NCBI GenBank assembly: GCA_045126895.1
Contig: JBGVPE010000020.1
Location: 60,306 to 124,305 of the forward strand
Reading direction: 5' to 3'
Length of the DNA stretch: 64,000 nucleotides
DNA from: Acutalibacteraceae bacterium
GTDB taxonomy: Bacteria > Bacillota > Clostridia > Oscillospirales > Acutalibacteraceae
Below are positions 14,820-63,670 of the stretch, piece after piece. The notes under the pieces were generated by a model that had not been told where the DNA came from, made no database searches, and saw nothing but the letters and a program-made list of their open reading frames with translations. Positions within the stretch are counted from its first letter, which is position 1. Every line of letters starts with the position of its first letter. The position numbers and the translations under genes were made by a program.

Positions 14820-14904
14820 GCGGGTATGGTGGAATTGGCAGACACGCAAGATTTAGGATCTTGTGCTTCCCGGCGTGCAGGTTCGACCCCTGTTACCCGC
14901 ACCA
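14820..14904 (+). tRNA. tRNA-Leu (anticodon TAG), class II with a long variable arm and encoded CCA
   Basis: Manual cloverleaf. Acceptor GCGGGTA/TACCCGC, anticodon stem CAAGA/TCTTG with loop TTTAGGA, variable arm GCTTCCCGGCGTGC, T-arm GGTTCGACCCC, 3' ACCA. Confidence 0.95.
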
Positions 14905-49270: not shown

Positions 49271-49287
49271 TATCTTAACAATATCAC

Positions 49288-49331
49288 AAAAAACTACCGA
49301 TACACTTTATATCAGCGTATCGGTAGTTTTA
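49288..49331. terminator. Bidirectional terminator between the convergent gerA-like and GH89 genes
   Basis: ACTACCGATAC ... GTATCGGTAGT stem flanked by A- and T-runs. Confidence 0.8.
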
Positions 49332-49347
49332 ATTTAACAAGCAGAAT

Positions 49348-51447
49348 TTAAAATTCCATTATAATCGGTTCATATTTTTCAATAATTTCATTGACAACCT
49401 GTAATGTATCTTCTTCACAAATTCCTGACGGTCTTGGAATATAATCTTTAATCCAATCATTTTCCATATACTCAATTCGTTTTGAAAGCAAAGTATCGGC
49501 ATACTCGTTCCTGTCATACGGACGGTGTTTTGACATATCTTTAAATTTTTTAGGTTTTTCAAAATATGATGCCATCATTCTGAAAAACACATACCATCTT
49601 TTTAGATAAAAATCTTTAACCATTCCGCCCCATTCACGCCAGTAAGTGTCAAACACCTGAGAGTTTTTAATAGGTCCGTAAGTCGTGTGATACATTAAAA
49701 AATTAACTTCAAGATTCTGTTTTATCTGTTTGGTATCACCTAACTGCCTTGCACCTTCAATCTGAGTGAAGAGATTTGTTGATTTAACAGTTTTAAGGAG
49801 TCTGTCCATATCCTGCGCAATTTCCATAAAAGCATTTGTAGTTTTTTCAAAAGGTTCTACAGCTTTATTTCTGAAGCACTCAACAGACTGTTGATAAATC
49901 GGGTAAAGAACATTGTTAAGAACCTGCTTCATAATCTGCTGAATATCAGATCTGAAAACATCATTCTTTTTTACATCATCAGCCATAACTTTTTTTACAA
50001 GAGAAAACAGTGCTTTATTGTCATAAGGCAATTCAAATGTATCTCCCGGTGCAGTGTGATAAACCTCTGTGCACGGTCTTGCACATATAGCTGATGCCTG
50101 ATTAAGTACACTTTTTTCATTATAGCAAAGCTTCTGTAAGCTAACTAAGAAATCACTATGCTGCTGAGTACCGTATCTGCATAATGAATAACGCTCTAAA
50201 AACTCTTCTATATTCAATTCACTGTCAGATGTTAAAACTTCACAAGCAAAGGAATAGTAAATCGGGTTTGAAGCGTCACTGTCAAAAAGTAGAGCTGAAC
50301 CAACTGCATTATCATACTTCTCTTTAGCTTTAAGATATGGGTTTTTGCTCAGGGCATTCATATTACCTGCAATTACAGTTCTGCCATTAAGGTTACCTCT
50401 GTAACCAACAACAAAATCGTTGCCGTTAAAACCGTCATATTTTAAGTAATCATCACCGTTTTCATCAATAATAACCATACCGTCAACTTTTGACGGATAG
50501 CTATTGATTGCGCTTGAATGAACAAACCAGGTTGCCTCACTGTCAAAATCCCTTATGAAGTTAATATACATAGCTATAGTTTTTTCAACAAAAGAGTTAA
50601 ATCCTTTGAAATTAACATCATAAAGCGGATCAAACAAATAATTATGAACCTCGCCTAAAAGCTCTTTTTGCTTTTCAAGATAAGCTTTCTGAAAAACTCC
50701 GATATGAATATCATCATTAGGTTCAATGGTCATAGCAGGTGGGAACTTGTTCCATACAGGTCGTTTAATCAAATCAGTTTTTGTGTAATTTCGTCTGAAG
50801 CTGAATGGTACAGTTGACATAAATCCCTGATGAACAGGGTTCATACCAAGTTCCTTTGCTCTATCGGTAACACGTCTGCCGATTTCAATCTTTTTATCAA
50901 AATACTCTTCACTGTAAATAGGAAGATATCCGAAAATGTTACCCGTTAACTGTCTATAATAAAAAGATGAACCTGCGATAAACTCAAGGGCATTTTCTTT
51001 TTTGAACCTGAATTCCATCAAAGCTTTATATAAAACGCCATCACTGCCTGTCAGAATTATCGGGGCATTCACACCGGTCATAGCCATAAAATCAAGTTCT
51101 TTTTCCCATCGGTCAAATCCCCATGAATCAATCTCACAGCCGTATCTTTCATAGGTGAACGACACTCTTAATTTCTGTAAAACGGTATTTTCAAGCTTCT
51201 CTGTAGGCAAAGGTGCTGATTTGATATAAGAAATATCGTAATCACCATTTGTAATCAGCACATTACAGTAGCTTTTTAAATAGCGGTAATAGCCCATCGC
51301 TTTAGCAATATCACTGCTGCCGGATATAACAATATTTTTATCCCTTGAAAAGACTTCATATCTGTCATAACCATTGTCAGCTTCACAATCTTCAAATATA
51401 AAAACATCTGCAATTTTAGGGGTATTTCTTAAAACTAAATCTAACAT
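49348..51447 (-). CDS. GH89 alpha-N-acetylglucosaminidase (NAGLU-like)
   Basis: 699 aa. NAGLU N-terminal domain pattern (ISGSSDIAKAMGYYRYLKSYC). TIM-barrel start WGFDRWEKELDFMAMTGVNAPI. All-helical C-terminal domain. No signal peptide or CBM. Confidence 0.8.
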   Translation of the reverse strand: MLDLVLRNTPKIADVFIFEDCEADNGYDRYEVFSRDKNIVISGSSDIAKAMGYYRYLKSYCNVLITNGDYDISYIKSAPLPTEKLENTVLQKLRVSFTYERYGCEIDSWGFDRWEKELDFMAMTGVNAPIILTGSDGVLYKALMEFRFKKENALEFIAGSSFYYRQLTGNIFGYLPIYSEEYFDKKIEIGRRVTDRAKELGMNPVHQGFMSTVPFSFRRNYTKTDLIKRPVWNKFPPAMTIEPNDDIHIGVFQKAYLEKQKELLGEVHNYLFDPLYDVNFKGFNSFVEKTIAMYINFIRDFDSEATWFVHSSAINSYPSKVDGMVIIDENGDDYLKYDGFNGNDFVVGYRGNLNGRTVIAGNMNALSKNPYLKAKEKYDNAVGSALLFDSDASNPIYYSFACEVLTSDSELNIEEFLERYSLCRYGTQQHSDFLVSLQKLCYNEKSVLNQASAICARPCTEVYHTAPGDTFELPYDNKALFSLVKKVMADDVKKNDVFRSDIQQIMKQVLNNVLYPIYQQSVECFRNKAVEPFEKTTNAFMEIAQDMDRLLKTVKSTNLFTQIEGARQLGDTKQIKQNLEVNFLMYHTTYGPIKNSQVFDTYWREWGGMVKDFYLKRWYVFFRMMASYFEKPKKFKDMSKHRPYDRNEYADTLLSKRIEYMENDWIKDYIPRPSGICEEDTLQVVNEIIEKYEPIIMEF

Positions 51448-51465: not shown

Positions 51466-52311
51466 TTATCTGTTTAAAATATCATTTATTGTAGTTAATC
51501 CTGTTACAATCTGTAATACTGCCAGACTGTCTGAGGAGTTGATTTTTCCGTTACGGTCAGTGTCTGCGGCTTCAAGCTTTTCTGAAGATAAGCTCAGAAT
51601 GCCTGTTGAATACTGCAAAATATTCAGCGCGTCACCTGAAGTAATGTTGCCGTCTGAATTTGTATCACCTGCATTGGTTATTTTAATACCGATATCAGCA
51701 TTAGTTAAATCAAAATTGATTGCTTCACCATAATCGTATCTTTTGCCGTCAAGCTTACCGTTATCTGTATAGCAAGCAAGATAAGTTTCACCAAAAGGAT
51801 TTGATGTGTTTCTGATTGATTTATCTGATAAATAAATGCTGCCGATATCATTATTTTTACCTTTTGCAATAAACCGCATATTGACTACCGATTCATTTAA
51901 TGAAGACGGAGCCACACTGCAATCAGCAGAAGTAGGTATCATATCAATTTTTAAGTGAGCTTCTTTATTACCCGATGCACTTTTCAGTGCAAGGTTACTA
52001 TATGTTTTGCAACAAGAATAAAATCTGCTGCTTGTATTCCAATTAAAAGAGTTATATTGAACGCCACCTGAAAATAAAATCTCAGTGGCAAAAGGACCAG
52101 CATAATAATCCTCATTCGTTTTTAAAAACAACGAAATATCTATTGTATCACCGTTATATAAATAAATAAAATCTTTATCTGTTTTTACATCTGAGCCGTT
52201 AACAGAGGCCTTCAAATCAATATCTGCATCATAGCGAGGCTGAGCAATAACAACTATCGGCAGAATCGCAATACAAACCGCCAACAAAACAATAATAAGC
52301 TTTCGTTTCAT
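51466..52311 (-). CDS. Secreted cohesin-like module + dockerin protein (P4)
   Basis: Signal peptide. The beta-rich module has GDTIDISLFLKTNEDYYAGPFATEILFS (cohesin-like strand pattern). C-terminal dockerin GDTNSDGNITSGDALNILQY...ADTDRNGKINSSDSLAVLQIVTG. Confidence 0.6.
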   Translation of the reverse strand: MKRKLIIVLLAVCIAILPIVVIAQPRYDADIDLKASVNGSDVKTDKDFIYLYNGDTIDISLFLKTNEDYYAGPFATEILFSGGVQYNSFNWNTSSRFYSCCKTYSNLALKSASGNKEAHLKIDMIPTSADCSVAPSSLNESVVNMRFIAKGKNNDIGSIYLSDKSIRNTSNPFGETYLACYTDNGKLDGKRYDYGEAINFDLTNADIGIKITNAGDTNSDGNITSGDALNILQYSTGILSLSSEKLEAADTDRNGKINSSDSLAVLQIVTGLTTINDILNR

Positions 52312-52330
52312 TATGTCAACCTCCTTATTT

Positions 52331-52363
52331 AAAAAATGGGGTCACAGGATAACCCGTGACCCC
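52331..52363 (-). terminator. Rho-independent terminator after P3
   Basis: GGGGTCAC(A)GG-ataa-CCCGTGACCCC. On the minus strand it is followed by TTTTTT. Confidence 0.8.
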
Positions 52364-52379
52364 TGAATGCTAAAGGGAA

Positions 52380-55300
52380 TTATTTAGAAGCTGTAACTGT
52401 TGCTGAGAAGCCGTCAACTGATGACCAACCGTCAGCTGTCTTGATGTTGAGAGTTACAGTGTTTTCGCCAACTGCATAGAACTTAGCATAAATATCATAT
52501 GTTGCTTTGCCGTCTGCAATTGTTGCATTTGCGAATGTCTTAAGAACTACACCGTTAACAACAACCTGAACTTTAAGTACGTCTGTACCAGTTACAACTG
52601 TAAGAGGAATTTCAGTGTACATTTTTGCTGTGTCAGCAATATCCATTGAGTATACTTCTGCATCATCTGTTGAATATTTGTAATCACAGATGTATGAGAG
52701 TGAAAGGTCTTCCCAACCTTCGTTGCCCTTAACGTTGAGGTAGTAAACGTCTGGGTTGATTGCAAGATCAAATGTCCAGATTTCATAAGCGATGTTTCTT
52801 GAAAGGTCGCTAACAACATTATTGTCTGCATCGTAGCTTACGATTTTACCTAATTCTCTTGCACGAGTTCTGTTAAGAGTAACTGTGTTGAGTTCGTTGT
52901 CTTTGTCAACGAAACGAAGTTTAACAGGTCTGCCTTCGATCTTAACTGTGAATGTGTTAGCAGCATAAGGAGTATCTGTGTAAGAAGCTTCCATTACTCT
53001 GCCTTCTGTTGGTTTAAGCTCGAGTTTGCCGATAGCTTCTGTGATAGCGTCTGCCATAGCGTCAACGTCAGCCTGTTTTGTGATGTCAAGGCCTTCAACT
53101 ACTGCTGCAACTGCATCTCTGAGAGCTGCAACTGATTTGTCAGTGTAGATTGAAAGGTCTGCTGGGATCTTACCTTTAGCTGCTTCAACTTTAGCGTAGT
53201 CAGCTGCTTTAACGTCGAGGTCTTTAACTGCTGCATTGATAGCTGCTGCAAAACCGTCAACTGTATCCTGCTGTGTTTCGCCAAGGCCGTAAACAACTGC
53301 ATCAACTGCATCGTCAACAACTTTGAGTGATTCTGTAGTGTAGATTGATCTGTCAGCAGGGATAGCTGCGATAGCTGCTTCAACTGCTGCATAGTTAGCA
53401 AGTTTTTCGAGGTCTGCGATAGCTGCATTGATAGCTGCTGCAAAACCGTCAACTGTTGTCTGTTCTGTCTTGTCAAGGCCTTCAACTACTGCTGCAAGAG
53501 CTTTTTCAAGTTTTGCCCATGAAGCATCTGTGTAGTCTTCTGCATTGAGAGCTGCTGCTGCATCTTCAGCTTCTGTTACTGCATCGTAATCAGCTGCTGC
53601 GATAACAAGCTGAGCTTTTGCTGTGTTAAGAGCGCTAGCTGCTGCTGCAACTACTGCTGCTGATGCGTTATCATCTGCATAAACTGACTCTGCGTTTGCA
53701 AGAGCCTGTGCATATACGCTCCAGTTAGAGTAGTAATCTGCTGTGTATTCTGGTTTAGCATCGATAGCTGCTTTAAGAGCTGTTTTGTCAGCTTTTTCTG
53801 CAAGGAGAGCAACTGCATTTACAAGATCTGCTGCTGCTGCGTTAAGAGCTGCCTGATCACCTGCTACTTCTGCTACTGCTTTAGCTGCATAAGCTGCTGC
53901 TTTAGCTGCCTCGTAAGCTGCAACTGAGTTTGGTGTGTAAGCGTCTGTGTCAGCTGGTTCCTGAGCTGTTGCCTGTTTCCATGCTGTGTAATCAAGAACG
54001 ATTGGTTTTGGATCAAGAGCATCGATAGCATCATAGATAGCTTCTGCTGCTGCATTAACAGCTGCCTGCTGTGATGAACCTGTTTCATCTCTGTCGAATA
54101 ACTGAGCTGCTGCTACTGCATCCTGGAGAGCATCATAAGATTCTTCTGTCCAATCATCAGCGTTTACGTCTGCTGCTTCTTCAAGTGCAGCGTCAAGACC
54201 TGTGAAGTTAGCTTTAGCCTCAAGAGCTGCTACTGCGCCTTCAAGAGTTGCTGCTGCGTTGTCAAGGTCTGCCTGAGTTGTAGCTGTTGCTACAGCTGCT
54301 TCTGCTGCTGCTTTAGCGCTTGTAGCTGCAGTAGCAGTTGATTTTGTGTAAGCTGAAAGGTCAGCCGGAACTGAACCGATAGCGTTGTTGATTCTTGTGT
54401 AGTTAAGAACAACTTTTTCTTCAAGGTTCTTAATAGCATCTGCAAGAGCATTAGCTGCTGCTGTAACAACTGTCTGGTCTGTTGACTCTTTAGCTTTTAC
54501 TGCATTGTTATAAGCTGTTACAACTGCTGCCCATGAATCTGATGTATATGCATCACCGTCAAGATCTTTATAGGCGTTGATTGCATTTTCAAGAGCTGTG
54601 TAGTCAACTGATGAACCACCTGCAACTTTGAATGTAAGAACCTGATTTTCAACAATGTGGCCTTCTTCAGGAATAGCATACATTGTGTCAATCCAGTCGC
54701 CTTCACCGTCGTCACAAACAAGGAAACCGTTGTTTGTCATAAGGATTGTACCAACTGCGCCAGGAGTTGCATCCGCTCTAACATATACAGGGAATGCATA
54801 GATATCCTCGTCAAGAGCTTCATAAAGTTCTCCGCCGTATTCGTCGTTCATCATTGTAACGTCGTACTGAACAACGATGTGGTTAACATGATGAGAAGCT
54901 TTCTGAGCTGCTGTCAAACCTTTTGCGTTCTGAACCCAGTTTGTTCTGTAGCTCTCAAGCATACGGCCCCAAGGTGCACCTGAAACTGTGCCGTCAGCAA
55001 ATGCCATAATCTGGCTGTCCTCGTTAACCCATGTTGCCTGAGTGATTGACATAGCAGATGTCATAAATATGTTTGAATCATAGTACCAGTCCTGAGAAAG
55101 AGTACCGATGTAAAGGCTGTCAGAAGCTTCTACATGTGTTGTAACCCAAACCATGTCACCAGGATTAACTTCGATTGGAGTTGTGTTGCCTGCTGCGTAA
55201 ACAGGGAGATCGTCTCTGCTTGATTTGTAAGCTGTTACGTCAGCACGCTGTGCTTTAATCTCAGCAGCTTTAACTGATGTGAGAACTTTGTTCTCTGCAT

Positions 55301-55508
55301 CAAGTGCAACAGATTCAGAAACAGCAGTACCTTCTTCTGTTTTATCTGTTGTGCCGACACTTTCCATAACCTGAGCACTAAGTGTCCAAGTTAATGTTTC
55401 AGAACCGTCAAGTACTTCATCGCGTTCTCTTGCAAATGATACTACTGCCATTGAAAGAACCATAGCAACAGCAAGTACAATGCTAAGAACTTTTTTGGTC
55501 ATTTTCAT
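52380..55508 (-). CDS. Large secreted or anchored protein (P3): cohesin-like N-terminal module, eight FIVAR-like helical repeats, two C-terminal beta modules
   Basis: Signal/anchor MKMTKKVLSIVLAVAMVLSMAVVSFA. NPGDMVWVTTHVEASDSLYIGTLSQDWYYDSNIF cohesin-like pattern. Ala-rich 64-70-aa repeats. No dockerin, LPXTG or SLH seen. Confidence 0.6.
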   Translation of the reverse strand: MKMTKKVLSIVLAVAMVLSMAVVSFARERDEVLDGSETLTWTLSAQVMESVGTTDKTEEGTAVSESVALDAENKVLTSVKAAEIKAQRADVTAYKSSRDDLPVYAAGNTTPIEVNPGDMVWVTTHVEASDSLYIGTLSQDWYYDSNIFMTSAMSITQATWVNEDSQIMAFADGTVSGAPWGRMLESYRTNWVQNAKGLTAAQKASHHVNHIVVQYDVTMMNDEYGGELYEALDEDIYAFPVYVRADATPGAVGTILMTNNGFLVCDDGEGDWIDTMYAIPEEGHIVENQVLTFKVAGGSSVDYTALENAINAYKDLDGDAYTSDSWAAVVTAYNNAVKAKESTDQTVVTAAANALADAIKNLEEKVVLNYTRINNAIGSVPADLSAYTKSTATAATSAKAAAEAAVATATTQADLDNAAATLEGAVAALEAKANFTGLDAALEEAADVNADDWTEESYDALQDAVAAAQLFDRDETGSSQQAAVNAAAEAIYDAIDALDPKPIVLDYTAWKQATAQEPADTDAYTPNSVAAYEAAKAAAYAAKAVAEVAGDQAALNAAAADLVNAVALLAEKADKTALKAAIDAKPEYTADYYSNWSVYAQALANAESVYADDNASAAVVAAAASALNTAKAQLVIAAADYDAVTEAEDAAAALNAEDYTDASWAKLEKALAAVVEGLDKTEQTTVDGFAAAINAAIADLEKLANYAAVEAAIAAIPADRSIYTTESLKVVDDAVDAVVYGLGETQQDTVDGFAAAINAAVKDLDVKAADYAKVEAAKGKIPADLSIYTDKSVAALRDAVAAVVEGLDITKQADVDAMADAITEAIGKLELKPTEGRVMEASYTDTPYAANTFTVKIEGRPVKLRFVDKDNELNTVTLNRTRARELGKIVSYDADNNVVSDLSRNIAYEIWTFDLAINPDVYYLNVKGNEGWEDLSLSYICDYKYSTDDAEVYSMDIADTAKMYTEIPLTVVTGTDVLKVQVVVNGVVLKTFANATIADGKATYDIYAKFYAVGENTVTLNIKTADGWSSVDGFSATVTASK
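53090..54620 (-). repeat. Tandem coding repeats (about eight units of 64-70 aa, FIVAR-like)
   Basis: Units such as ADYAKVEAAKGKIPADLSIYTDKSVAALRDAVAAVVEGLDITKQADVDAMADAITEAIGKLE. A 34-nt segment, CTGCATTGATAGCTGCTGCAAAACCGTCAACTGT, occurs identically at 53231 and 53423, giving a 192-nt period. Confidence 0.8.
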
Positions 55509-55568
55509 TACTGAATTTCCTCCTAAAAAATTTTTATTTCAAATAAGTTAGCTTATTTAAAACCAAAA

Positions 55569-56630
55569 TTACATTGTCTGGTCAAGATCTGCCAAACCTG
55601 CAGCTACTTTAGATAATGCAGTTGAGTCAGAAGCGTTGACCGCACCGGAACCGTCAACATCAGCTGCGATGTTGAAGATATCCTCTGTTATTTCACCTAA
55701 ACCTGCAGCAACCTTATTCAAGTCAGTTGAGTCAGATGCGTTGATAGCACCGTCACCATTAAGGTCACCGTAAATTAAGATTTTATAAGTGTCAAGTAAT
55801 CCACCGTTAGCAAATACTCTGACACCTGCGCCTGTGCCGAAACCACCTGCAGTACCTGTTGTAGCAAGAGGCTGAAGTGTTGCAGCACCAAGAGGCTGAA
55901 CATTAGCTAAAATTGTAGCTTTGCTCATTGTAAGACCGGCCCAGTTTTTGATTATCTTTTCTGAATAGTCGATGATAACCTGTGAGCCCGGATAAGTTGT
56001 AATACCATCTACAGCACCCTGGTTGATTTCAACATCAACGCCTTCGAATGAGAGGGTATTATCTACGCGACAAAGAGTTGTTGCGTCGGCAGGGTCAATA
56101 ACTGCCTGATTGTAGAAGAGTGTTGACTCTTCAGGAATAAAGATTGAACCTGTAGCACCGCCTGCAGTTGATTTTACCTGCAACTGGAATGAGAAGCACT
56201 TAACAGACTCAGCGCTGTTGAAGCTACCGATATTTGTTGATGTAACAGCAGCAGTCCACTGAACAAGAACACAACCGTAAGCTGATGGATCGTACTCTAC
56301 AGGATAGAGAGAATAATCGTTGCTTGTGTTAGCTTCAAGTGAGCCTTTGTAAGTAAGGCAATCATCATAAGCGGTCAATTTTATATTACCTGTTGATGGA
56401 AGTTCAAATACATCTGCACTGTAAAGAACAGGGAAACGCAAGCAAGTAGCATTGTAATTGTTTTTAAGGTAAACATTTACAGTAACTACATCGCCTGTTG
56501 AGTATGTAGATGAATCTGCCGCAACAGTATAAGTCATTGTACCATCAACGGCGAAAGCGGAGACAGCAAAAACAGAGAAAGCAAGAACTACAGCAAGAGC
56601 AATTGCTAAAATTCTTTTTGAAGTTTTCAT
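55569..56630 (-). CDS. Secreted cohesin-like module + dockerin adaptor protein (P2)
   Basis: Signal peptide ending AFA. GDVVTVNVYLKNNYNATCLRFPVLYSADVFELPS (cohesin-like). C-terminal dockerin GDLNGDGAINASDSTDLNKVAAGL...ADVDGSGAVNASDSTALSKVAAGL. Confidence 0.7.
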   Translation of the reverse strand: MKTSKRILAIALAVVLAFSVFAVSAFAVDGTMTYTVAADSSTYSTGDVVTVNVYLKNNYNATCLRFPVLYSADVFELPSTGNIKLTAYDDCLTYKGSLEANTSNDYSLYPVEYDPSAYGCVLVQWTAAVTSTNIGSFNSAESVKCFSFQLQVKSTAGGATGSIFIPEESTLFYNQAVIDPADATTLCRVDNTLSFEGVDVEINQGAVDGITTYPGSQVIIDYSEKIIKNWAGLTMSKATILANVQPLGAATLQPLATTGTAGGFGTGAGVRVFANGGLLDTYKILIYGDLNGDGAINASDSTDLNKVAAGLGEITEDIFNIAADVDGSGAVNASDSTALSKVAAGLADLDQTM

Positions 56631-56656
56631 CTGTATACCTCCTTAATTATCTGGGG

Positions 56657-56689
56657 ATATCCCGGGCAGGGAGTCCCTGCCCAAGATAT
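56657..56689 (-). promoter_or_regulatory. GC-rich intercistronic stem-loop between P1 and P2
   Basis: ATATC-cc-GGGCAGGGAGTCCCTGCCC-aa-GATAT. On the coding (minus) strand no U-run follows it. It lies in the 65-nt spacer just upstream of the P2 RBS (AAGGAGG). Confidence 0.6.
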
Positions 56690-56695
56690 TTAGAA

Positions 56696-59600
56696 TTAAC
56701 CTCTGTCAGCGTAGTTAATTTCTGCAAGACCTGCTGCAACTTTATCAAGAGCAGTAGCGTCAGATGCGTTAACGATAGCTGAGTTGTCCATATCAGCTGC
56801 GAAGTCAAATGCTGAGTCAGCTGTAGCGCTGAATTCTGCAAGACCTGCTGCAACCTTGTTAAGTACTGTTGAGTCAGATGCGTTAACTGTACCGTCACCG
56901 TTAAGGTCACCTGTAATAACAATTACATACTCATCGATAACATTACCGTTTGCATCAGAGATTGTGATTGTTGAACCTGTTGCGATAGCATCACATTCAA
57001 CTGTAGCATCACCTGTGATGTTGAAGTATTCAGCAACATCAGCAACTACATCTCCGGGGAATGCACCAAGAAGGAGTTTACCGAATGTTGTTTCTTCAAC
57101 AACGAGTGAGTAGCCGTTGTCGCCAGGGTTTGCGCCTGCGATTTCAACTACAACTTCATCACCGCTGCCGCTGCCGCTGCCACCTTCGCCCTTCATAAGT
57201 CTCTTCTGAGCTTCGATGAGCTGAACATAAGCTTCGTTGATCTTTGTCTGTCTTGGAGCTTCTTCATTGTTTACGCTTGTTGCAAAAGCAATAGCTCTTG
57301 AATAATTGTTCCAAGAATCTTCTGTGTAATCATCTTCGTTATAACCTGCTGCATTTGCATTAGCAACTGCGATGTTAAGGTTTGTCTTTAAGCTTGGAGT
57401 CTTAACAAGTCTGCCTGCATAAAGTGAAAGACGATGGTTTGTATAAGCAACTGAAAGTGAGTCAACAGGGCCGTATGTAAAGTCTTCGTAATCAACGATT
57501 TCTTCTTCGCCTGTTTCTTCATTTATAACAGTTTTGTAGATTTTTGCGCTTTCAACAAGGCCGTTAGCATCGTTACGAGCGCTTCTGTAGTTTTCATATG
57601 TGTAAGCTACATAGTCATCTTTACCAAAGTAGTTGAAGTTAGGAGCATCGTATTCAACGCCTTCTTCATTGCTTGGAGAGATGCTTTCAAGGAGATCGTA
57701 TGTGCTCTGTGCACCGCCGCCTGCAGCTGATGCTTCAAGAGTTTCGATAGCTGCCTCAAGAGATTCTGATACAGTCTTGAACTTCTTAGCATCACCTGAT
57801 GTTGCATTACAGAATGTAGCTGCTGTTCTCTTACCGTTGATAAGAGCTGAAGCTGCATCCATAGCTGCAAGGTAAGCTGTCCATGCTGCTGAATCAGTGT
57901 AGTCATATGCCTGACGCTGAGCATTAACTTCTGAATTAAAGAGTCCAGGAAGTCCAAAGTCATCATAAAGACAGATGTTACCCTGATAGGTAAGGTTAGT
58001 AGTGCCTACAGTAACACCAATGTTCTGATAATAACGTTTGAAACCGTTAGCTGAGAAAGCTTCTAATTTAGCTGCTTCAAGCTGCTCTTCTGTGTATTCA
58101 CCATAAGCTTCTTTGAACTTGAATGGTTCAATATCAGCCTGGAAGCCTGCTTTGATTTCAACTTCTTCTGTGTTAGCTTCCATAAATGAAAGTTTACCGA
58201 TTGAAGTTGCTGTTGTTGTAATTGCATAAGGTTTTACTGTAACTGCACCTGCGTTAGGATTGTTTTCATCCATTTCGTTGTTATTTTTAACACGAGATGA
58301 GAGATCATCCAAACCGCTGATATCAGTTCTGTAAAGGTTCATGTTACCGTCAACAATGCTTGCTGCTACGCCTGAAGCTGATTTAGCTGCTGTCTTAGCT
58401 TCGTCAGTATCAGTCTTAGAAAGACATGAATAGATACGAGCATCAAGAGGCTGAGATGTAAGTTTTGAACCGTCTTCAACAAGAACATCATAGTTGATTG
58501 TAAATACGATAGGCTGTGTACCTGTGAAAGAACCGCCAACTGTGAATGTTGTTGATTCACCACCGTCAAGAGTTGTCTGAGCAGGTGTTGAAACTGTTAC
58601 TGTTGAAACTGAAGATTTAACAGAGTTAATCTTGATAGCATAACGTGAATCCTGATGGAAACCTGATGCATCTGTATAACCTGTGTTAATACCTGATGAT
58701 GGGTTTGTGATTGTAACCTGGAAGTTTGGAGCTGTTGAAATATAGTAGAATGAATCAAGTGTAAATTCAGGAGCTTCAAATTCCTGTGGGTTTGTAAGGT
58801 CAAGGATAGGACAAACAATTGGAAGAACTGCAGCTGCAAGAGTTACTCTGTAGCTGTAAAGGTCAGTGAAGAGAGCGTTTACTGTACCAGCAAGGTTCTC
58901 TTTCTTGATGATGTCTTCAAGAGTTGTCATATTTGTAGCAAGAAGGTTCGGGAAAACAATGTTAATTGTTCTTGGAAGGAGGTTAAGGATAACCTGCTTG
59001 ATTGGTTTCTGAAGTTCTGAACCTTCAACCTCTGTTGTGAGGATTGAGATAAGACCATCAAAGTTAAGTGAGAGAAGGTTTTCAAAAATAACCTTTTTGA
59101 TTAACTCTTCAAAGTTAACTGTACCTGATGGGAAGAGAGAAGCGTCAAACCAGTTTCTGTTGAAGATTGTGAAAAGAATCTTGTCGATATTTTTCCAACC
59201 TGAGTCAGAAGTGCTGAGATTGATACCGCTGAGAAGACCTGCATACTTAGGAATAGCCCAGTTTGCAATCTGTGTTAATACGTCATCAATGCTTGTGCCG
59301 TATTCAATACCGATATCGAAGAGGTCGTTAAGAGCTTCTGCAGCATAGTCAGCAAGAACGTTGTAGATTGTATCTACAGAATCATTCGGATATACTGACA
59401 AGTCGCTGTAGTCTCTGCCAGGAAGGTCGATTGCTACGATACCTTTAACAGTGTAGTTAGCAACTTCTACAAGAGTATCTGCGCTTTCAGGGATCCATAC
59501 ACCGTCAACTGATGAGTTGATGATTGCACGAGCAACGTATGAAACAACCTGCATATCAGTCATAGCAGCAAGCTCTTCTGCAGTCTTAACTTCTACGAAT

Positions 59601-60706
59601 GATGCGAAGAATGTGTCACCTGTCTGAGCGAGAACTTCTCTACCGAATTTGATGATGTTAGGAACGATCTGGCTGTTTGGACCTGTTGACCAGTCAAAGC
59701 CGAGTTCATCAGAGATGACAACATTAACGATTGATGCGATAATGTTGTTAAGCTCACCCATGAATGTTACACCATCAGTGAATGTGTAATTCTGGAATGT
59801 AAAGTTACATGTACCCTCAGCTGTAAGGTTAAAGAACTTAGTATAACCTTCGATTGCGTCAGCATTATCAGCGAGCATATCATTGATAGCGCCGAGCCAT
59901 TTCTCATTAGCCATTGGAACGAGTAATTCGTTGTAAAGTACTTTAAGAAGGTTATCTACGAAGTCATAAGTTGAACCCTTTGAAATGTTTGTGTAACCTT
60001 CAAGTGCAGGAACTAAGCCTTCAACAAATGTTCCGTCTGCATCAACATAACCAACAACAAACTTGTCGATAAGATGCTGAGCCATATCGTCTACAGTTTC
60101 TGTGATTGTTTCAGGAGCGTCTTTTTCGTAAACAAGGTCATAAAGTAAACCTTTAACAAGCGGTGTTACGTCAAGAGGACCGCCAAGAAGGCCTTCAAGA
60201 AGAGGACCAACAAGTGAACCTAAGTCGATTGAACCGTCGATTACGCCTGTGAAGATACCTTTGTTGTCATAAAGGAACTCGAGCAAAGCATAAATTACCT
60301 GAAGGTCAGCGTCTGCTGTTTTTGCTGATCTACGTGGTTTTTCAAGTGCTGAAGCGTCTAATTTTGAAAGGTCGCCAAGCATTGGTCCGAACTGGTTCCA
60401 AAGGCTGCCTTTCAACAATTCCTGAACACTGTCAAGAGCTTTGTCGATTGATCTAAGGTCGAGATTACCAACAAAGATGTCGTCCGCTGTCAACATGATC
60501 TGTTCTTCGTTGAGCATACGGTCAACTTCGTCCAATGCTGCAGAAGCATACTGCTCTGTGGTAAGAACCGGCTTATCCATGCCATCATACTGGCCTGCGA
60601 TAGCTTCGTCTTTCCATGGTGCGTATGCACTTGCTGCGATTGCAACTGTTGAGAAAACCATTACTACTGCAAGAAGAACGCTGAGTAATTTTTTGGACTG
60701 TCTCAT
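56696..60706 (-). CDS. Large secreted dockerin-bearing protein of unknown function (P1, 1336 aa)
   Basis: Start at ATG 60706 behind GGAGG (MRQSKKLLSVLLAVVMVFSTVAIAASAYA); the track start is 60787. About 700 aa of unassigned, mostly helical domain, then beta-rich modules and FIVAR-like helices (YNEDDYTEDSWNNYSRAIAFA). C-terminal dockerin GDLNGDGTVNASDSTVLNKVAAGL...ADMDNSAIVNASDATALDKVAAGL. Confidence 0.7.
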   Translation of the reverse strand: MRQSKKLLSVLLAVVMVFSTVAIAASAYAPWKDEAIAGQYDGMDKPVLTTEQYASAALDEVDRMLNEEQIMLTADDIFVGNLDLRSIDKALDSVQELLKGSLWNQFGPMLGDLSKLDASALEKPRRSAKTADADLQVIYALLEFLYDNKGIFTGVIDGSIDLGSLVGPLLEGLLGGPLDVTPLVKGLLYDLVYEKDAPETITETVDDMAQHLIDKFVVGYVDADGTFVEGLVPALEGYTNISKGSTYDFVDNLLKVLYNELLVPMANEKWLGAINDMLADNADAIEGYTKFFNLTAEGTCNFTFQNYTFTDGVTFMGELNNIIASIVNVVISDELGFDWSTGPNSQIVPNIIKFGREVLAQTGDTFFASFVEVKTAEELAAMTDMQVVSYVARAIINSSVDGVWIPESADTLVEVANYTVKGIVAIDLPGRDYSDLSVYPNDSVDTIYNVLADYAAEALNDLFDIGIEYGTSIDDVLTQIANWAIPKYAGLLSGINLSTSDSGWKNIDKILFTIFNRNWFDASLFPSGTVNFEELIKKVIFENLLSLNFDGLISILTTEVEGSELQKPIKQVILNLLPRTINIVFPNLLATNMTTLEDIIKKENLAGTVNALFTDLYSYRVTLAAAVLPIVCPILDLTNPQEFEAPEFTLDSFYYISTAPNFQVTITNPSSGINTGYTDASGFHQDSRYAIKINSVKSSVSTVTVSTPAQTTLDGGESTTFTVGGSFTGTQPIVFTINYDVLVEDGSKLTSQPLDARIYSCLSKTDTDEAKTAAKSASGVAASIVDGNMNLYRTDISGLDDLSSRVKNNNEMDENNPNAGAVTVKPYAITTTATSIGKLSFMEANTEEVEIKAGFQADIEPFKFKEAYGEYTEEQLEAAKLEAFSANGFKRYYQNIGVTVGTTNLTYQGNICLYDDFGLPGLFNSEVNAQRQAYDYTDSAAWTAYLAAMDAASALINGKRTAATFCNATSGDAKKFKTVSESLEAAIETLEASAAGGGAQSTYDLLESISPSNEEGVEYDAPNFNYFGKDDYVAYTYENYRSARNDANGLVESAKIYKTVINEETGEEEIVDYEDFTYGPVDSLSVAYTNHRLSLYAGRLVKTPSLKTNLNIAVANANAAGYNEDDYTEDSWNNYSRAIAFATSVNNEEAPRQTKINEAYVQLIEAQKRLMKGEGGSGSGSGDEVVVEIAGANPGDNGYSLVVEETTFGKLLLGAFPGDVVADVAEYFNITGDATVECDAIATGSTITISDANGNVIDEYVIVITGDLNGDGTVNASDSTVLNKVAAGLAEFSATADSAFDFAADMDNSAIVNASDATALDKVAAGLAEINYADRG

Positions 60707-60978
60707 TATAAATGCACCTCCATAATATTTGCATTTTAAAAATGCAGTTTGCACATTAGCGGTTGTGCCTACCGAATTGGCAACCACTGTCGTCGCCGAG
60801 CCGATTGAGCGCCGTCAAGGCCACGCCTTGATGCTCAATCATCAATCGGCGATGGCTGCCGTTCTCTGCTCCGCGGCAGTGATATCAAACCATTCCCGCG
60901 AGAGCGGAGTTCTGGTGTTACGGTTTTATGCACAACAGCTGAGAATGCGCACGTACCCTATTACACCATTACTATGGT
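60707..60978 (-). promoter_or_regulatory. Long (~270 nt) GC-rich structured 5' leader of the P1 operon (unclassified cis-regulatory RNA candidate)
   Basis: It lies between a consensus-like promoter and the P1 start. By hand count, 60761-60960 is 56% GC against 29% for 61021-61120. There are at least five stable hairpins. Two helices have G-U pairs on the minus strand that would be A-C mismatches on the plus strand. Confidence 0.55.
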
Positions 60979-60984
60979 TAGTAT

Positions 60985-61013
60985 AAATATAACCCACCTT
61001 TTATGTTTTGTCA
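60985..61013 (-). promoter_or_regulatory. Sigma-A promoter of the cohesin/dockerin cluster
   Basis: Minus strand reads TTGACA (61008-61013), 17 nt, TATATT (60985-60990). Confidence 0.65.
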
Positions 61014-61288
61014 ATAAATTTTCATCAATTAAATTCGCGTTTTTATCAACTTTGTGCATAATACACATAATGCACATTGAGTTTTTGTAAACACCGATTT
61101 TATTATCTTTCACAACATGTGTAAAGGTATTTTCTTTACCTCCATAAACAATCAAAATTTCGGTAAAGTCTTATTGCTTTACAGACTCATTTTCGTATAC
61201 ATTTATAATATATAGAGTGTCAGATACACATATATTTGCTATAATTTTGTAACTTTAGCGCCAAAATATATAAAATATGGTAAAAACG

Positions 61289-61352: not shown

Positions 61353-62378
61353 ATGAATCTTACAAAGAAAATTACAGCAATTTTACTTGTTTTAGCTATG
61401 TTATTTGCTTTTTCATCCTGTATGGGTATTGAAGAAGATGAAACAGGAGAGCTTGATATCGGCACAATCAACATCGGTATCATCTACAACGGTGATATGG
61501 AAGAAGAAGGCACACTTGCTAACAAGCACTTCGCCGCTTTCCAGACTGCTTTTGATTTAGCAGGTGCAGGCGGAAGCCAGATTAACCAGCGTGACGGTGT
61601 AACACCCGGCGATGCTGAAGCTATGGACAAAACAATGAACGACCTTCTCTCAAGAGGATGCCGTCTTATCATCACAACAGATGCAGGTTATTATGACGGT
61701 GCATTGAAGTTTGCTAAAGAAAACCCATCAGTTTTCTTTGTTGCTATGACTGAATATGGTTCAGCCGCTCAGGAAATGTCAAACTTTGCTACATTTGATA
61801 TCAGAACCTTTGAAACAGAGTACCTCGAGGGTATGATGGCTGCAGCTTCATCTGCAAACGGTAAAATCGGTTATGTTGCAGCAACAGAAAACGCTACTGA
61901 AGTAAATGCATTTGCAAACGGTGCTAAGAGCATTAACCCAAATGCAACAATCTCTCTTGTAGTTACTGATGATGTTAAGGCCGGTATTGATAAAATTACC
62001 GCTACAGGATGCGACACAGTTTATTCTATGAACTATGAAGTTGACGAAGAAGGCAACAGATTCTTCAACGTTCCTGAATCAGTTAAGTATGATATGTGCG
62101 TTAACACTCTTGGTGATAACGGCAAATTCATCTCTGCCTCATGCCTTAACCTTGACAGACTTTATACCGAAATCATCACTGACACTGTTAATGAGAAATT
62201 TGAAGACATCAAGTTATTCTCAGCAGGTGTTAAAGAAGGTGTAGTTGATGTCAGACCTGCAGAAGATGCAGCATTACAGGCAAAAGTAAACGCTGAAAAA
62301 GATAAGCTTTTTGCAGGAACAAGCAATATCAATAAATTAGTATCAACAAGCATTGTACTTTACACATTAGTTAAATAA
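61353..62378 (+). CDS. BMP-family (PnrA/Med-like) substrate-binding lipoprotein
   Basis: Lipobox-like LFAFSSC, and periplasmic-binding-protein type I fold pattern (INIGIIYNG..., RGCRLIITTD, IGYVAA). The family call is moderate. Confidence 0.55.
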   Translation: MNLTKKITAILLVLAMLFAFSSCMGIEEDETGELDIGTINIGIIYNGDMEEEGTLANKHFAAFQTAFDLAGAGGSQINQRDGVTPGDAEAMDKTMNDLLSRGCRLIITTDAGYYDGALKFAKENPSVFFVAMTEYGSAAQEMSNFATFDIRTFETEYLEGMMAAASSANGKIGYVAATENATEVNAFANGAKSINPNATISLVVTDDVKAGIDKITATGCDTVYSMNYEVDEEGNRFFNVPESVKYDMCVNTLGDNGKFISASCLNLDRLYTEIITDTVNEKFEDIKLFSAGVKEGVVDVRPAEDAALQAKVNAEKDKLFAGTSNINKLVSTSIVLYTLVK

Positions 62379-62428
62379 TCAAAAAGTCCCGAAAGGGACT
62401 TTTTTGATATAGTTTCGGAGGAATAGCT

Positions 62429-63670
62429 ATGAATTCAAGATATGAATATGCAAAAGAGCTTTATGCTAAAATAGGTATTGATACAGAAGCAGTTTTAGAG
62501 AAACTTGCAAATGTACCTGTTTCAATTCATTGTTGGCAAGGTGATGATATTGCCGGTTTTGAGAGCAACACCGCTTTAAGCGGCGGTATTATGACAACAG
62601 GCAATTACCCAGGTAAAGCAAGAAACGCTGAAGAGCTTATGGCTGATATTGAAAAAGTATTATCATTAGTACCGGGTAAACACAAAATCAATCTTCACGC
62701 GATTTATGCAATATCTGATACACCTGTCAGCCGTGATAAATTAGAGCCTGAGCATTTTGACAAATGGATTGACTTTGCAAAGAAAAACGGTATCGGCCTT
62801 GATATCAACCCTACCCTTTTCTCACATCCGATGGCAGCTGACGGTCTTACCTTATCTCATCCTGATGAAAAAGTACGCAGATTCTGGATTGACCACTGTA
62901 AAGCAATCAGAAAAATCGGCGCATATATAGGCAAAGAGCTTGGTATCACTTGTGTAAACAACATCTGGATACCTGACGGATACAAAGAAATCCCTGCGGA
63001 CAGATTCGGTCCTCGTCAAAGACTTAAGGAATCACTTGATGAGATTCTCAGTGTTAAGTACGACAAACAGTACCTTATAGATACTGTTGAATCAAAGGTT
63101 TTTGGCATTGGTGTTGAAGCATACACTGTCGGCTCACATGAATTCTATATGAATTATGCTGCTAAAAATGATTGCCTTTGCTTACTTGATAACGGGCACT
63201 ATCATCCTACAGAGGTTGTAAGCGATAAAATCCCTTCAATGCTTCTTTTCGCTGATAAAGTTGCACTTCATGTTACAAGAGGAATCAGATGGGATAGCGA
63301 CCACGTTGTTATTTTTGATGATGAGCTTAAAGAAATTGCAAAAGAAATTGTCCGTTGCGATGCTCTTGATAAGGTTATTATAGGCCTTGACTATTTTGAT
63401 GCATCAATAAACCGTGTTGCAGCATGGGTTGTCGGTACCCGTAATATGAGAAAAGCTTTACTTTTTGCAATGCTTCTTCCTCATGATGAGCTTAAAAAGT
63501 GTCAGGATAGCGGCAACTTCACAAAAATGCTTGCATTGAGTGAAGAATATAAATTCTACCCTTTTGCAGATGTTTGGGATGAGCTTTGTGCAAGAGAAAA
63601 CACACCTCAGGGTGACAGCTGGTATTCTGTTGTTGAGGAATACGAAAAAGAAGTTCTTTCTAAGAGATAA
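62429..63670 (+). CDS. rhaA: L-rhamnose isomerase
   Basis: [34 protein letters not shown] and RWDSDHVV blocks. 413 aa. Confidence 0.9.

What the first reader, a model, noticed from the sequence alone, without database searches (positions are those of the whole stretch)
60707..60978. Unclassified ~270-nt GC-rich structured leader RNA upstream of the cohesin/dockerin cluster
A near-consensus promoter (TTGACA-17-TATATT, 60985-61013, minus strand) sits about 280 nt upstream of the P1 start codon. The intervening leader is compositionally anomalous. By hand count, 60761-60960 is 56% GC, against 29% in the next 100 nt of intergenic DNA.

The leader folds into several strong helices (minus-strand RNA):
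- UGCGCA...UGUGCA (60950-60928).
- CUCCGC-UCUC-GCGGGA (60908-60893).
- CUGCCG...CGGCAG.
- A long hairpin, GCCGAUUGA(UGA)UUGAGC-A-UCAAGGC-GUG-GCCUUGA-CGGC-GCUCAAUCGGC, with a duplicated GAUUGA segment that allows two mutually exclusive pairings.
- GGUUG...CAACC.

Two helices contain G-U pairs on the minus strand that would be A-C mismatches on the plus strand. This supports an RNA transcribed with P1. I could not match the leader to any riboswitch consensus I know, so it is a candidate new cis-regulatory RNA controlling a surface complex.
Basis: seen in the sequence. Interest (0 to 1): 0.7.

Follow-up and report, generated by a model that had tools for sequence, protein, structure and literature searches.

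The report
New structured leader RNA, dockerin operon
The GC-rich stretch is a real, previously uncatalogued ~280-nt folded RNA leader, with a three-way junction and a pseudoknot kept by compensatory mutations, that always precedes one operon of secreted dockerin proteins in uncultured gut Firmicutes; what it does has not been tested.

Summary
Window 60985-60707 (minus strand) lies between a conserved TTGACA-17-TATATT promoter and the P1 start codon, and contains the most GC-rich 200 nt of the window.

I recovered about 20 homologous leaders upstream of P1 orthologs (40-99% protein identity) from Acutalibacteraceae/Ruminococcus-like MAGs. They share this architecture:
- a 5' three-way junction (P1-P3) starting about where the transcript should begin
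- hairpin P4
- a long rod, P5
- an H-type pseudoknot with an A-rich loop
- hairpin P7
- a strong SD that is not specifically sequestered

P3, P4, pseudoknot stem S1 and pseudoknot helix S2 all covary (0 of 500 shuffles reach the observed values). G-U pairs put the RNA on the P1 sense strand. No Rfam 15 family matches in any lineage.

Function is inferred only. Junction and loop nucleotides vary, no terminator is shared, and the leader does not hide the SD. I therefore favour a cis-acting mRNA stability or processing module (about 0.45) over a metabolite riboswitch or protein-controlled switch (about 0.35).

It is a new RNA family of a known general kind, with a narrow distribution.

The parts
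60986..61014 (-). Sigma-70-type promoter TTGACA-17-TATATT
   Evidence: 11/12 match. Both hexamers and the spacing are kept in every P1 lineage from 40 to 99% protein identity.
60707..60985 (-). Whole leader RNA, from the first base after the -10 hexamer to the base before the ATG (about 279 nt). The predicted TSS lies within a few nt of 60979.
   Evidence: Leaders in the other lineages are 260-347 nt.
60974..60979 (-). P1 5' strand AACCAU. It pairs with AUGGUU at 60888-60893 and closes the three-way junction at the very 5' end of the transcript.
   Evidence: the core ACCA/UGGU pairs in 16 of 16 sequences but never varies, so it is consistent with the model without proving it.
60888..60893 (-). 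P1 3' strand AUGGUU
60962..60968 (-). P2 5' strand UGGUGUA. It pairs with AACACCA at 60913-60919. P2 is capped by hairpin GUGCGCA/UGUGCAU (60946-60952 with 60928-60934).
   Evidence: 83% of cells paired, with U-A to C-G in L012 and L030 and A-U to C-G in L024. for the cap.
60913..60919 (-). P2 3' strand AACACCA
60895..60908 (-). P3 hairpin UCCGC-UCUC-GCGGG
   Evidence: 5 of 5 pairs show compensatory changes (CCGC/GCGG, UCCC/GGGA, CCUGA/UCAGG, CCUGU/ACAGG, UCCAG/CUGGA). P3 is absent in the L024/L027 lineage.
60856..60879 (-). P4 hairpin CUGCCG-(12-nt loop CGGAGCAGAGAA)-CGGCAG
   Evidence: 5 of 5 pairs compensatory, 97% of cells paired. The loop is invariant in the close lineage.
60783..60856 (-). 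P5 long rod: base GCCAUCGCCGA / UCGGCGA...UGGU, middle UGAUUGAGC/GCUCAAUCG, apex AUCAAGGC-GUG-GCCUUGA. This is the GC-rich, nearly invariant core.
   Evidence: In the six close genomes 96% of 77 core columns are invariant, against 35% of third codon positions. The base motif RCCAUCRGCCGA recurs in the L009, L010, L020 and L024 lineages.
60751..60774 (-). H-type pseudoknot: S1 CGGU (60771-60774) with ACCG (60760-60763); loop GCACA (60764-60768) pairs with UGUGC (60751-60755); loop 3 is CUAA.
   Evidence: found without prior bias at the homologous place in 10 lineages. (92% of cells paired against 69% in shuffles, 0 of 500; 11 of 12 pairs compensatory; slid registers 15-46%). (alignment-free Fisher p about 2e-6).
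60730..60746 (-). P7 AU-rich hairpin UGCAUUU-UUA-AAAUGCA just upstream of the SD
   Evidence: Six different stem sequences occur across lineages, and 41 of 42 cells pair (read from the sequences).
60704..60721 (-). Shine-Dalgarno GGAGGUG (60715-60721) and the P1 start codon ATG (60704-60706)
   Evidence: Predicted accessibility equals that of shuffled-leader controls.
61053..61076 (.). Conserved upstream DNA box TGTG-N7-CACA (61053-61067), within the palindrome TGTGCATAAT/ATTATGCACA. It is a probable transcription-factor site and not part of the RNA.
   Evidence: fixed 53 nt upstream of the -35 in 12 lineage representatives, and 41 nt upstream in three.

Best explanation
The region is a genuine, previously uncatalogued structured 5' leader RNA of about 280 nt. 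It is transcribed on the minus strand from a conserved sigma-70-type promoter, together with an operon of secreted dockerin- and FIVAR-bearing proteins.

**Shown by comparative analysis**
- A 5' three-way junction (P1-P3) whose closing helix uses the bases where the transcript should begin.
- Hairpin P4.
- A long GC-rich rod, P5, that is almost invariant in the window's lineage.
- An H-type pseudoknot with an A-rich third loop.
- An AU-rich hairpin, P7.
- A near-perfect Shine-Dalgarno sequence that the leader does not specifically hide.

**Inferred**
The leader most likely acts in cis as a stability or processing module for a highly expressed surface-protein mRNA. It would bury the 5' end and leave compact folded domains, possibly after cleavage in the rod, that resist 5'-end-dependent RNases such as RNase J and RNase Y. 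This would set the level and stoichiometry of the operon's products. It probably does not sense a metabolite. The near-invariant P4-P5 core suggests a sequence-specific partner (a protein or an RNase) in that lineage.

Confidence that this is a real structured cis leader is about 0.9. The confidence figure of 0.45 applies to the stability/processing mechanism.
For: **Existence, strand and structure**
- The promoter is conserved in all lineages.
- The leader lies upstream of every P1 ortholog examined at 40-99% identity, and the 5' motif was found nowhere else in a metagenome-wide pattern scan: 9 of 9 true hits precede P1 genes.
- Covariation is seen in S1 and the pseudoknot helix, in P3 and P4, and in the alignment-free pseudoknot test.
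- G-U pairs exist only on the sense strand.
- The leader is more conserved than coding DNA: 74% invariant columns overall and 96% in the core, against 35% at third codon positions.
- Frame-breaking indels exclude a coding explanation.

**Mechanism**
- P1 starts 7 nt after the -10 hexamer, about where the TSS should be.
- There is a strong promoter and a strong SD.
- SD accessibility equals shuffled controls, so there is no built-in OFF helix.
- No terminator is shared.
- Junction and loop nucleotides vary, and whole modules are lineage-specific: P3 is absent in L024/L027, the rod is remodelled in L005/L011/L012, and an SD-like GAAAGGGGAGAU box occurs only in some lineages. That fits selection for a fold rather than for a ligand pocket.
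- Precedents: stem-loop-controlled processing and stability of cellulosomal operon mRNAs (PMC4423207, PMC10311766), and, from my own knowledge, 5' stabilisers of S-layer, aprE and cryIIIA mRNAs in Firmicutes.
Against: - No expression, TSS, half-life or cleavage data exist for any carrier; all are uncultured MAGs.
- A simple stabiliser would not obviously need a conserved pseudoknot and three-way junction, nor explain a 77-nt core that is 96% invariant. Both look more like specific recognition.
- The helix alignments were curated by hand, which favours the proposed structure. The slid-register and shuffle controls and the unbiased search only partly offset this.
- P1 never varies, so it is unproven.
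- An alternative 5' hairpin, ACCAU-NNNN-AUGGU, could form instead of P1 and P2, which would allow a switch.
Confidence: 0.45

Rival explanations
1. A factor-responsive riboregulator. The folded leader binds a small molecule (a new riboswitch class) or a dedicated RNA-binding protein, and that binding changes translation, processing or elongation of the operon mRNA in response to a signal such as substrate availability.
For: - The fold is complex and supported by covariation, with a three-way junction and a pseudoknot, both typical of aptamers.
- The first ~25 nt of the RNA (AACCAUAGUAAUGGUGUAAU) and the P4-P5 core are extremely conserved.
- Mutually exclusive pairings are possible: the 5' hairpin ACCAU/AUGGU against P1+P2, and, in the window lineage, P3/P4 against a long-range helix.
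- Precedent: the long 5'-UTR of the dockerin-encoding xyl-doc cluster, reported to block expression until relieved by substrate and called a putative riboswitch (PMC5815224).
- Regulators of amylosome-type systems are unknown (PMC12663171).
Against: - Junction strands J2/3 and J3/1 and pseudoknot loops L1 and L3 vary in length and sequence even among close relatives, unlike known aptamer cores.
- No shared terminator or SD-sequestering helix is present.
- It occurs once per genome, before one gene family of no known metabolic role.
- The U-to-C change that breaks the alternative 5' hairpin is compensated in P2, which argues that P2 is the selected state.
Confidence: 0.35
2. The leader, or a processed part of it, is a stable RNA with its own function in trans (an sRNA or scaffold derived from the 5' UTR), and its position upstream of P1 is secondary.
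For: - The core is near-invariant, as expected for an RNA with a conserved partner.
- The xyl-doc 5'-UTR accumulates as a free RNA at a much higher level than its downstream genes (PMC5815224).
Against: - No terminator separates it from P1.
- It is always immediately upstream of P1 and followed by the P1 SD.
- The invariant core is specific to one lineage and is remodelled in others.
Confidence: 0.08
3. It is not an RNA element. The conservation would reflect DNA-level sites (operators), a small ORF or leader peptide, a mobile-element remnant, or a chance GC island.
For: - Both strands fold equally well by energy.
- ACCAT-N4-ATGGT just after the promoter is a DNA palindrome.
- A genuine DNA box exists upstream.
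- Mechanical ORFs overlap the region.
- Short uORFs preceded by an SD-like box exist in some other lineages (read).
Against: - Compensatory changes and G-U wobbles only make sense for sense-strand RNA.
- L024 and L027 turn the palindrome into ACCAT/GTGGT, which pairs in RNA but not in DNA.
- 1-nt indels break every ORF.
- It is single-copy, syntenic, and absent from viral contigs.
Confidence: 0.03

Closest known systems
[quoted passage not shown]
   Same: Both are long (>250 nt), conserved, highly structured leaders between a sigma-70-type promoter and the first gene of an operon of secreted dockerin proteins. Both have been proposed to control expression at the RNA level.
   Different: The xyl-doc leader is over 400 nt and was proposed to act through two perfect terminator-like stem-loops. 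Here no shared terminator exists. The xyl-doc structure rests on four sequences more than 85% identical, whereas this one has cross-lineage covariation and a pseudoknot. Homology was not tested because no xyl-doc sequence was at hand. The hosts belong to different families.
Selective RNA processing and stabilisation (SRPS) stem-loops of the cip-cel operon (PMC4423207, PMC10311766)
   Same: RNA structures within a cohesin/dockerin-system operon mRNA that determine processing, transcript stability and subunit stoichiometry. This is the mechanism I favour here.
   Different: SRPS elements are simple stem-loops at the 3' ends of cistrons in intergenic regions. This is a multi-domain 5' leader with a junction and a pseudoknot, and no processing site has been mapped.
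5' mRNA stabilisers of Firmicutes and S-layer genes (aprE leader, cryIIIA STAB-SD, slpA 5' UTRs; from my own knowledge, not re-read here)
   Same: Strong promoter, a structured leader with the 5' end base-paired, and a strong SD. Several sister lineages carry an internal SD-like box, GAAAGGGGAGAU, close to the STAB-SD GAAAGGAGG.
   Different: Those stabilisers are short (about 60-130 nt) hairpins without a demonstrated tertiary fold. The window's own leader lacks the SD-like box. This leader is 280 nt with a pseudoknot.
H-type pseudoknot riboswitches (preQ1-II/III, SAM-II/V) and exoribonuclease-resistant RNAs (xrRNA)
   Same: A classic H-type topology (S1, short L1, S2, A-rich L3) lies upstream of the start codon. 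Like xrRNAs, it combines a three-way junction with a pseudoknot.
   Different: None of these Rfam models matches. The pseudoknot's 3' strand ends 44-68 nt before the start codon and does not include the SD. Loop nucleotides are not conserved. In xrRNAs the pseudoknot rings the 5' end, and no such pairing was seen here.

Membership tests
Any Rfam 15 family (4227 covariance models) | Score at or above the family's gathering threshold | tested here: not met
   The window's only hit is a tRNA at 14820-14901. No hit in 13 homologous loci. At E<=10 in the window and E<=1 in six loci there are only scattered chance matches, and none recurs at the leader.
Riboswitch (generic) | Highly conserved unpaired nucleotides in junctions or loops that form a ligand pocket | tested here: not met
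   J1/2 is purine-rich but variable (AGUAA, AAAGA, AAUAA, AGAAA, AAGAG, AAAAG). J2/3 is 0-4 nt and J3/1 is 1-5 nt of unrelated sequence. Pseudoknot L1 and L3 vary.
Riboswitch (generic) | Expression platform: an intrinsic terminator or an SD-sequestering helix that alternates with the aptamer | tested here: not met
   No terminator in the window and none shared across lineages. SD unpaired probability is 0.25-0.5, the same as shuffled-leader controls (nested structures only).
Riboswitch (generic) | Direct, specific ligand binding that changes expression | not testable with these tools
   Needs in-line probing or reporter assays.
H-type RNA pseudoknot | A hairpin whose loop pairs with a downstream strand (S1-L1-S2-L2-S1'-L3-S2'), supported by covariation in both helices | tested here: met
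   S1 has 6 of 6 and S2 has 5 of 6 pairs with compensatory changes. L3 is A-rich, and it is short (4 nt) where S1 is short (4 bp, window lineage).
5'-terminal mRNA stabiliser (aprE / S-layer type) | Secondary structure within a few nucleotides of the transcript's 5' end | tested here: inconclusive
   P1 begins 7 nt after the -10 hexamer, where the TSS is expected, and pairs in 16 of 16 sequences. But the TSS is not mapped and P1 shows no covariation.
5'-terminal mRNA stabiliser (aprE / S-layer type) | The leader lengthens mRNA half-life | not testable with these tools
   Needs rifampicin-chase experiments with and without the leader.
STAB-SD element (cryIIIA type) | An SD-like sequence in the leader, far from any start codon, that pairs with the 16S rRNA 3' end | tested here: not met
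   GAAAGGGGAGAU (AAAGGUGA in L027) is present in the L009, L010, L020, L024 and L027 lineages but absent from the window and its five close relatives.
xyl-doc 5'-UTR (putative riboswitch, PMC5815224) | Sequence homology, and two perfect terminator-like stem-loops with a convertible structure | not tested
The terminator-like feature is not present here.
Exoribonuclease-resistant RNA (xrRNA-like) | A three-way junction whose 5' end is encircled through a pseudoknot between the 5' strand and the junction | tested here: inconclusive
   A three-way junction and a pseudoknot both exist, but the pseudoknot is a separate domain about 120 nt downstream. No 5'-end-to-junction pseudoknot was looked for systematically.

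The most novel reading that the evidence does not exclude
The leader is a new class of signal-responsive RNA that governs production of a dockerin-based surface complex in gut Acutalibacteraceae, a family that, on my recollection of GTDB classification, includes the resistant-starch degrader Ruminococcus bromii. It could be a riboswitch for a carbohydrate-derived or second-messenger ligand. It could instead be a bacterial exoribonuclease-resistant fold (three-way junction plus pseudoknot) that halts RNase J and creates a long-lived mRNA.
Probability: 0.2. Interest if true: 0.8.

Novelty: new variant of a known kind. Interest (0 to 1): 0.55.

Why it matters
How dockerin-based surface complexes (cellulosomes and amylosomes) are regulated in gut Firmicutes is largely unknown. 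[quoted passage not shown]

This leader is a concrete, testable RNA element at the head of such an operon. One lineage that carries it is common in human gut metagenomes (a protein cluster of 288 members).

For RNA biology it adds a multi-domain, covariation-supported fold (junction, rod, pseudoknot) with no Rfam counterpart. It also shows how much of such a leader can be remodelled between lineages while its architecture is kept.

If it turns out to be only a constitutive stabiliser, it is of modest interest, though still a useful part for high-level expression in anaerobic Firmicutes.

Tried and rejected
- **Known RNA family:** rejected.
- **Repeat or mobile element:** a single copy in the window, the core is absent from viral contigs, and the locus is always syntenic.
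- **Coding (plus-strand 85-aa ORF 60729-60986; in-frame GTG extension of P1 from 60787; 28-codon AUG ORF in the core):** 1-nt indels between close relatives break the frames, and the SD-supported start is ATG 60706.
- **Transcription attenuation:** no terminator in the window and none shared across lineages. P3 followed by AUUUUGG in some lineages is only weakly terminator-like and is not conserved.
- **SD sequestration:** not different from shuffled controls.
broken in relatives.
specific to the window.
- **5'-terminal hairpin ACCAU/AUGGU as the selected structure:** the U-to-C change in L012 and L030 breaks it but is compensated in P2. It may still form transiently.
- **P1 function by homology:** only the dockerin matches the PDB and Pfam.
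- **First single-sequence protein search:** found only 4 homologs; the profile search was needed.
- **P7 mini-alignment:** MAFFT re-gapped it, so the tool count could not be made.
- **Breaker-lab 50-genome survey:** does not mention Ruminococcus, dockerin or S-layer motifs.

Full report
**1. The observation**

Read on the minus strand, window 61014-60704 shows, in order:
- TTGACA-17-TATATT at 61014-60986
- a leader of about 279 nt
- a strong Shine-Dalgarno, GGAGGUG, at 60721-60715
- the P1 start codon at 60706-60704

The mechanical ORF list extends P1 to a GTG at 60787. The SD and the conserved N-terminus MRQSKKLLS place the true start at 60706.

60761-60960 is 56.5% GC against 26% in the next 100 nt, and this is the most GC-rich 200 nt of the whole window.

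The leader folds much better than dinucleotide shuffles (z = -6.6), but so does its complement (z = -6.95). Energy alone therefore says nothing about strand. The element is single-copy in the window.

**2. Not a known RNA**

Rfam 15 gives nothing at gathering thresholds in the window apart from a tRNA elsewhere. A sensitive local scan gives nothing meaningful at E<=10. There is no hit in 13 homologous loci, and nothing recurs at E<=1 in six divergent loci. A viral-contig scan for the core was empty. The Breaker-lab 50-genome survey mentions no Ruminococcus, dockerin or S-layer motif.

**3. Homologs**

P1 is a 1336-aa secreted protein with FIVAR and dockerin domains. Only its dockerin matches solved structures. 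It heads an operon with a 353-aa dockerin protein, a 1042-aa FIVAR protein and a 281-aa dockerin protein. Pfam finds no cohesin in them.

Sources of homologous loci:
- A genome scan gave four close loci in Acutalibacteraceae/Clostridia MAGs.
- A profile search gave 125 P1-family proteins from 99% down to about 26% identity.
- Twelve contig look-ups sampled the identity tiers.
- One metagenome scan, anchored on the invariant 5' motif, returned ten loci. Nine sit directly upstream of a P1-family ORF and one is a chance match.

All carriers are uncultured MAGs labelled Ruminococcus sp., Acutalibacteraceae or Clostridia, from human and animal guts.

Every ortholog of at least 40% identity has the same promoter followed by a 260-347-nt leader. 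The 34% tier (L006/L025) keeps the promoter but has a 143-nt leader without the motif. L007 has a rearranged variant.

**4. Conservation**

In the window's lineage (six genomes, 77-94% CDS nucleotide identity), the share of invariant alignment columns is:

| Region | Invariant columns |
|---|---|
| Leader overall | 74% |
| 77-nt P4-P5 core | 96% |
| Codon position 1 | 74% |
| Codon position 2 | 83% |
| Codon position 3 | 35% |
| Upstream intergenic DNA | 45% |

One-nucleotide indels between relatives exclude a coding explanation on either strand.

**5. Structure**

Across lineages the sequence drifts but the architecture stays.

*Three-way junction at the 5' end.*
- P1 (AACCAU/AUGGUU, core ACCA/UGGU) pairs in 16 of 16 sequences but never varies.
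- P2 (UGGUGUA/ACACCA) is 83% paired. U-A becomes C-G in two lineages and A-U becomes C-G in one.
- P3 shows compensatory changes at 5 of 5 pairs.

*Hairpin P4.* It also shows compensatory changes at 5 of 5 pairs, with 97% of cells paired.

For P1-P4 together, 87.6% of cells pair against 75.4% in shuffles (0 of 500 reach it). Slid-register controls give 35-51%.

*Rod P5.* Its base motif, RCCAUCRGCCGA, recurs in several lineages.

*H-type pseudoknot.* An unbiased search for hairpin-plus-loop pairing in the last 135 nt returned the same element, at the homologous place, as the top candidate in 10 of 10 non-window lineages, each with different helix sequences. On a curated alignment of 16 sequences:
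- 91.9% of cells pair, against 69.4% in shuffles (0 of 500)
- 11 of 12 pairs carry changes on both sides
- slid registers fall to 15-46%

An alignment-free test of loop-to-downstream complementarity gives a Fisher combined p of about 2e-6.

Loop 3 is A-rich, and it is short where S1 is short. The pseudoknot's 3' strand ends 44-68 nt before the start codon.

*Hairpin P7.* It has six unrelated stem sequences across lineages, with 41 of 42 cells paired (read). The tool count failed because MAFFT re-gapped the tiny alignment.

*Caveat.* The helix alignments were built by hand, with N as gap filler, and so lean towards the model. The controls and only partly offset this.

*Strand.* About 20 G-U cells in these helices would be A-C mismatches on the other strand. 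With the promoter, this fixes the RNA as the P1 sense strand.

**6.

- The helix GGUUG...CAACC is broken in four of six close relatives. Its 3' half is really S1 of the pseudoknot.
- The 'duplicated GAUUGA' alternative pairing exists only in the window.
- The promoter coordinates are one base off.
- 'Cohesin' is unverified.

**7. Mechanism (inference)**

*Against a classical riboswitch:*
- Junction strands and pseudoknot loops vary in length and sequence even among close relatives.
- No terminator is shared.
- The predicted unpaired probability of the SD (0.25-0.5) equals that of controls with shuffled leader bodies.
- The element occurs once per genome, before a single gene family.
- Modules come and go between lineages.

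*For a stability or processing role:*
- The promoter and the SD are both strong.
- P1 starts where the transcript should start.
- The RNA is a chain of compact helices.
- The P5 rod resembles an RNase III-type substrate (my reading).
- Several sister lineages carry a STAB-SD-like GAAAGGGGAGAU box.
- Stem-loop-controlled processing and stabilisation is established for cellulosomal operons (PMC4423207, PMC10311766).

*What this does not explain well:* the conserved pseudoknot and the 96%-invariant core. Both point to specific recognition by a protein, an RNase or another RNA. This keeps a factor-responsive riboregulator as a serious rival. So does the precedent of the xyl-doc 5'-UTR, a long structured leader of a dockerin operon reported to repress expression until substrate relieves it (PMC5815224).

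My estimates are about 0.9 that this is a real structured cis leader, 0.45 for stability/processing as its main role, 0.35 for a ligand- or protein-responsive switch, and under 0.1 each for a trans-acting RNA or a non-RNA explanation.

**8. Novelty and interest**

This is a new RNA family (no Rfam or literature match found) within a known general kind, the structured 5' leaders of surface-protein or cellulosome-type operons. Its distribution is narrow: one family of gut Firmicutes, one operon.

It matters mainly because regulation of dockerin-based complexes in these bacteria is uncharacterised (PMC12663171), and because it is a well-defined fold that can be tested directly.

Noticed in passing
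window 61053-61076 (box TGTGTATTATGCACA at 61067-61053, minus strand): A conserved TGTR-N7-YACA dyad, in the window part of the perfect palindrome TGTGCATAAT/ATTATGCACA. It starts exactly 53 nt upstream of the -35 in 12 lineage representatives and 41 nt upstream in L024, L027 and L006, about one helical turn closer. This looks like a Crp/Fnr-type activator site centred near -82 or -70. It would be a DNA-level control separate from the RNA.
   Followed up: partly
L009 (leader nt ~195-260), L010, L020, L024, L027; not in the window: An SD-like box GAAAGGGGAGAU (AAAGGUGA in L027) lies 9-16 nt upstream of an AUG that opens a 9-24-codon uORF running through pseudoknot stem S1. The peptides are not conserved and the spacing is mostly too long for a real SD. 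The box resembles the cryIIIA STAB-SD. The window lineage lacks it.
   Followed up: partly
window 51469-60706 (minus strand): The 'cohesin/dockerin cluster' contains three dockerin-bearing proteins and two FIVAR proteins, but Pfam detects no cohesin even at E<=1. The N-terminal ~1000 aa of P1 match no family or solved structure. The gene order P1, ~355-aa dockerin protein, >1000-aa FIVAR protein is kept in all lineages.
   Followed up: partly
window 60787 and L005 416: Start-codon calls are misleading here. The mechanical ORF extends P1 27 codons upstream into the leader (GTG at 60787), and the public gene call in L005 starts 18 nt upstream of the ATG supported by the SD.
   Followed up: yes
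L006, L025, L026 (34% P1 tier) and L007 (40% tier): The most distant P1 relatives keep the TTGACA promoter and strong SD. L006/L025/L026 have a 143-nt leader without the 5' motif or pseudoknot. L007 has a rearranged version: a 5' hairpin GACCAU/GUGGUU, a GGUGUC/GGCACC hairpin, and a UUGCAC...GUGCAA loop pairing across a long linker. This gives a view of how the leader was built up or lost.
   Followed up: no
L011, L012, L030, L005, L015, L020 (leader nt ~78-105): In these lineages the P3 hairpin (CCC.../GGGG) is followed by a conserved AUUUUGGUAAAAUG. This is weakly terminator-like, and its UGGU is also the 3' strand of P1, so P1 formation and a P3 'mini-terminator' would compete. The feature is not present in the window lineage.
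   Followed up: no
window 14820-14901 (+): An 82-nt tRNA with a long variable arm is the only Rfam hit in the window (53.8 bits).
   Followed up: no
window 47843-51447 and 61353-63670: Neighbouring genes are a NAGLU-type (alpha-N-acetylglucosaminidase) glycoside hydrolase and a GerA spore-germination protein downstream of the operon. Divergently upstream are a Bmp/PnrA-like ABC substrate-binding lipoprotein and L-rhamnose isomerase. The Bmp gene is the conserved upstream neighbour in the 47-100% tiers, but it is replaced by TruB or IMPDH in the ~40% tier.
   Followed up: no
L014, L016-L019, L022 (human gut metagenome contigs): The L009-type leader is nearly identical across many human gut metagenomes, and its P1 cluster has 288 member sequences. 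This carrier is therefore a common, still unnamed human gut species (one MAG is labelled Ruminococcus sp.). That makes public metatranscriptomes a realistic way to map the TSS.
   Followed up: partly
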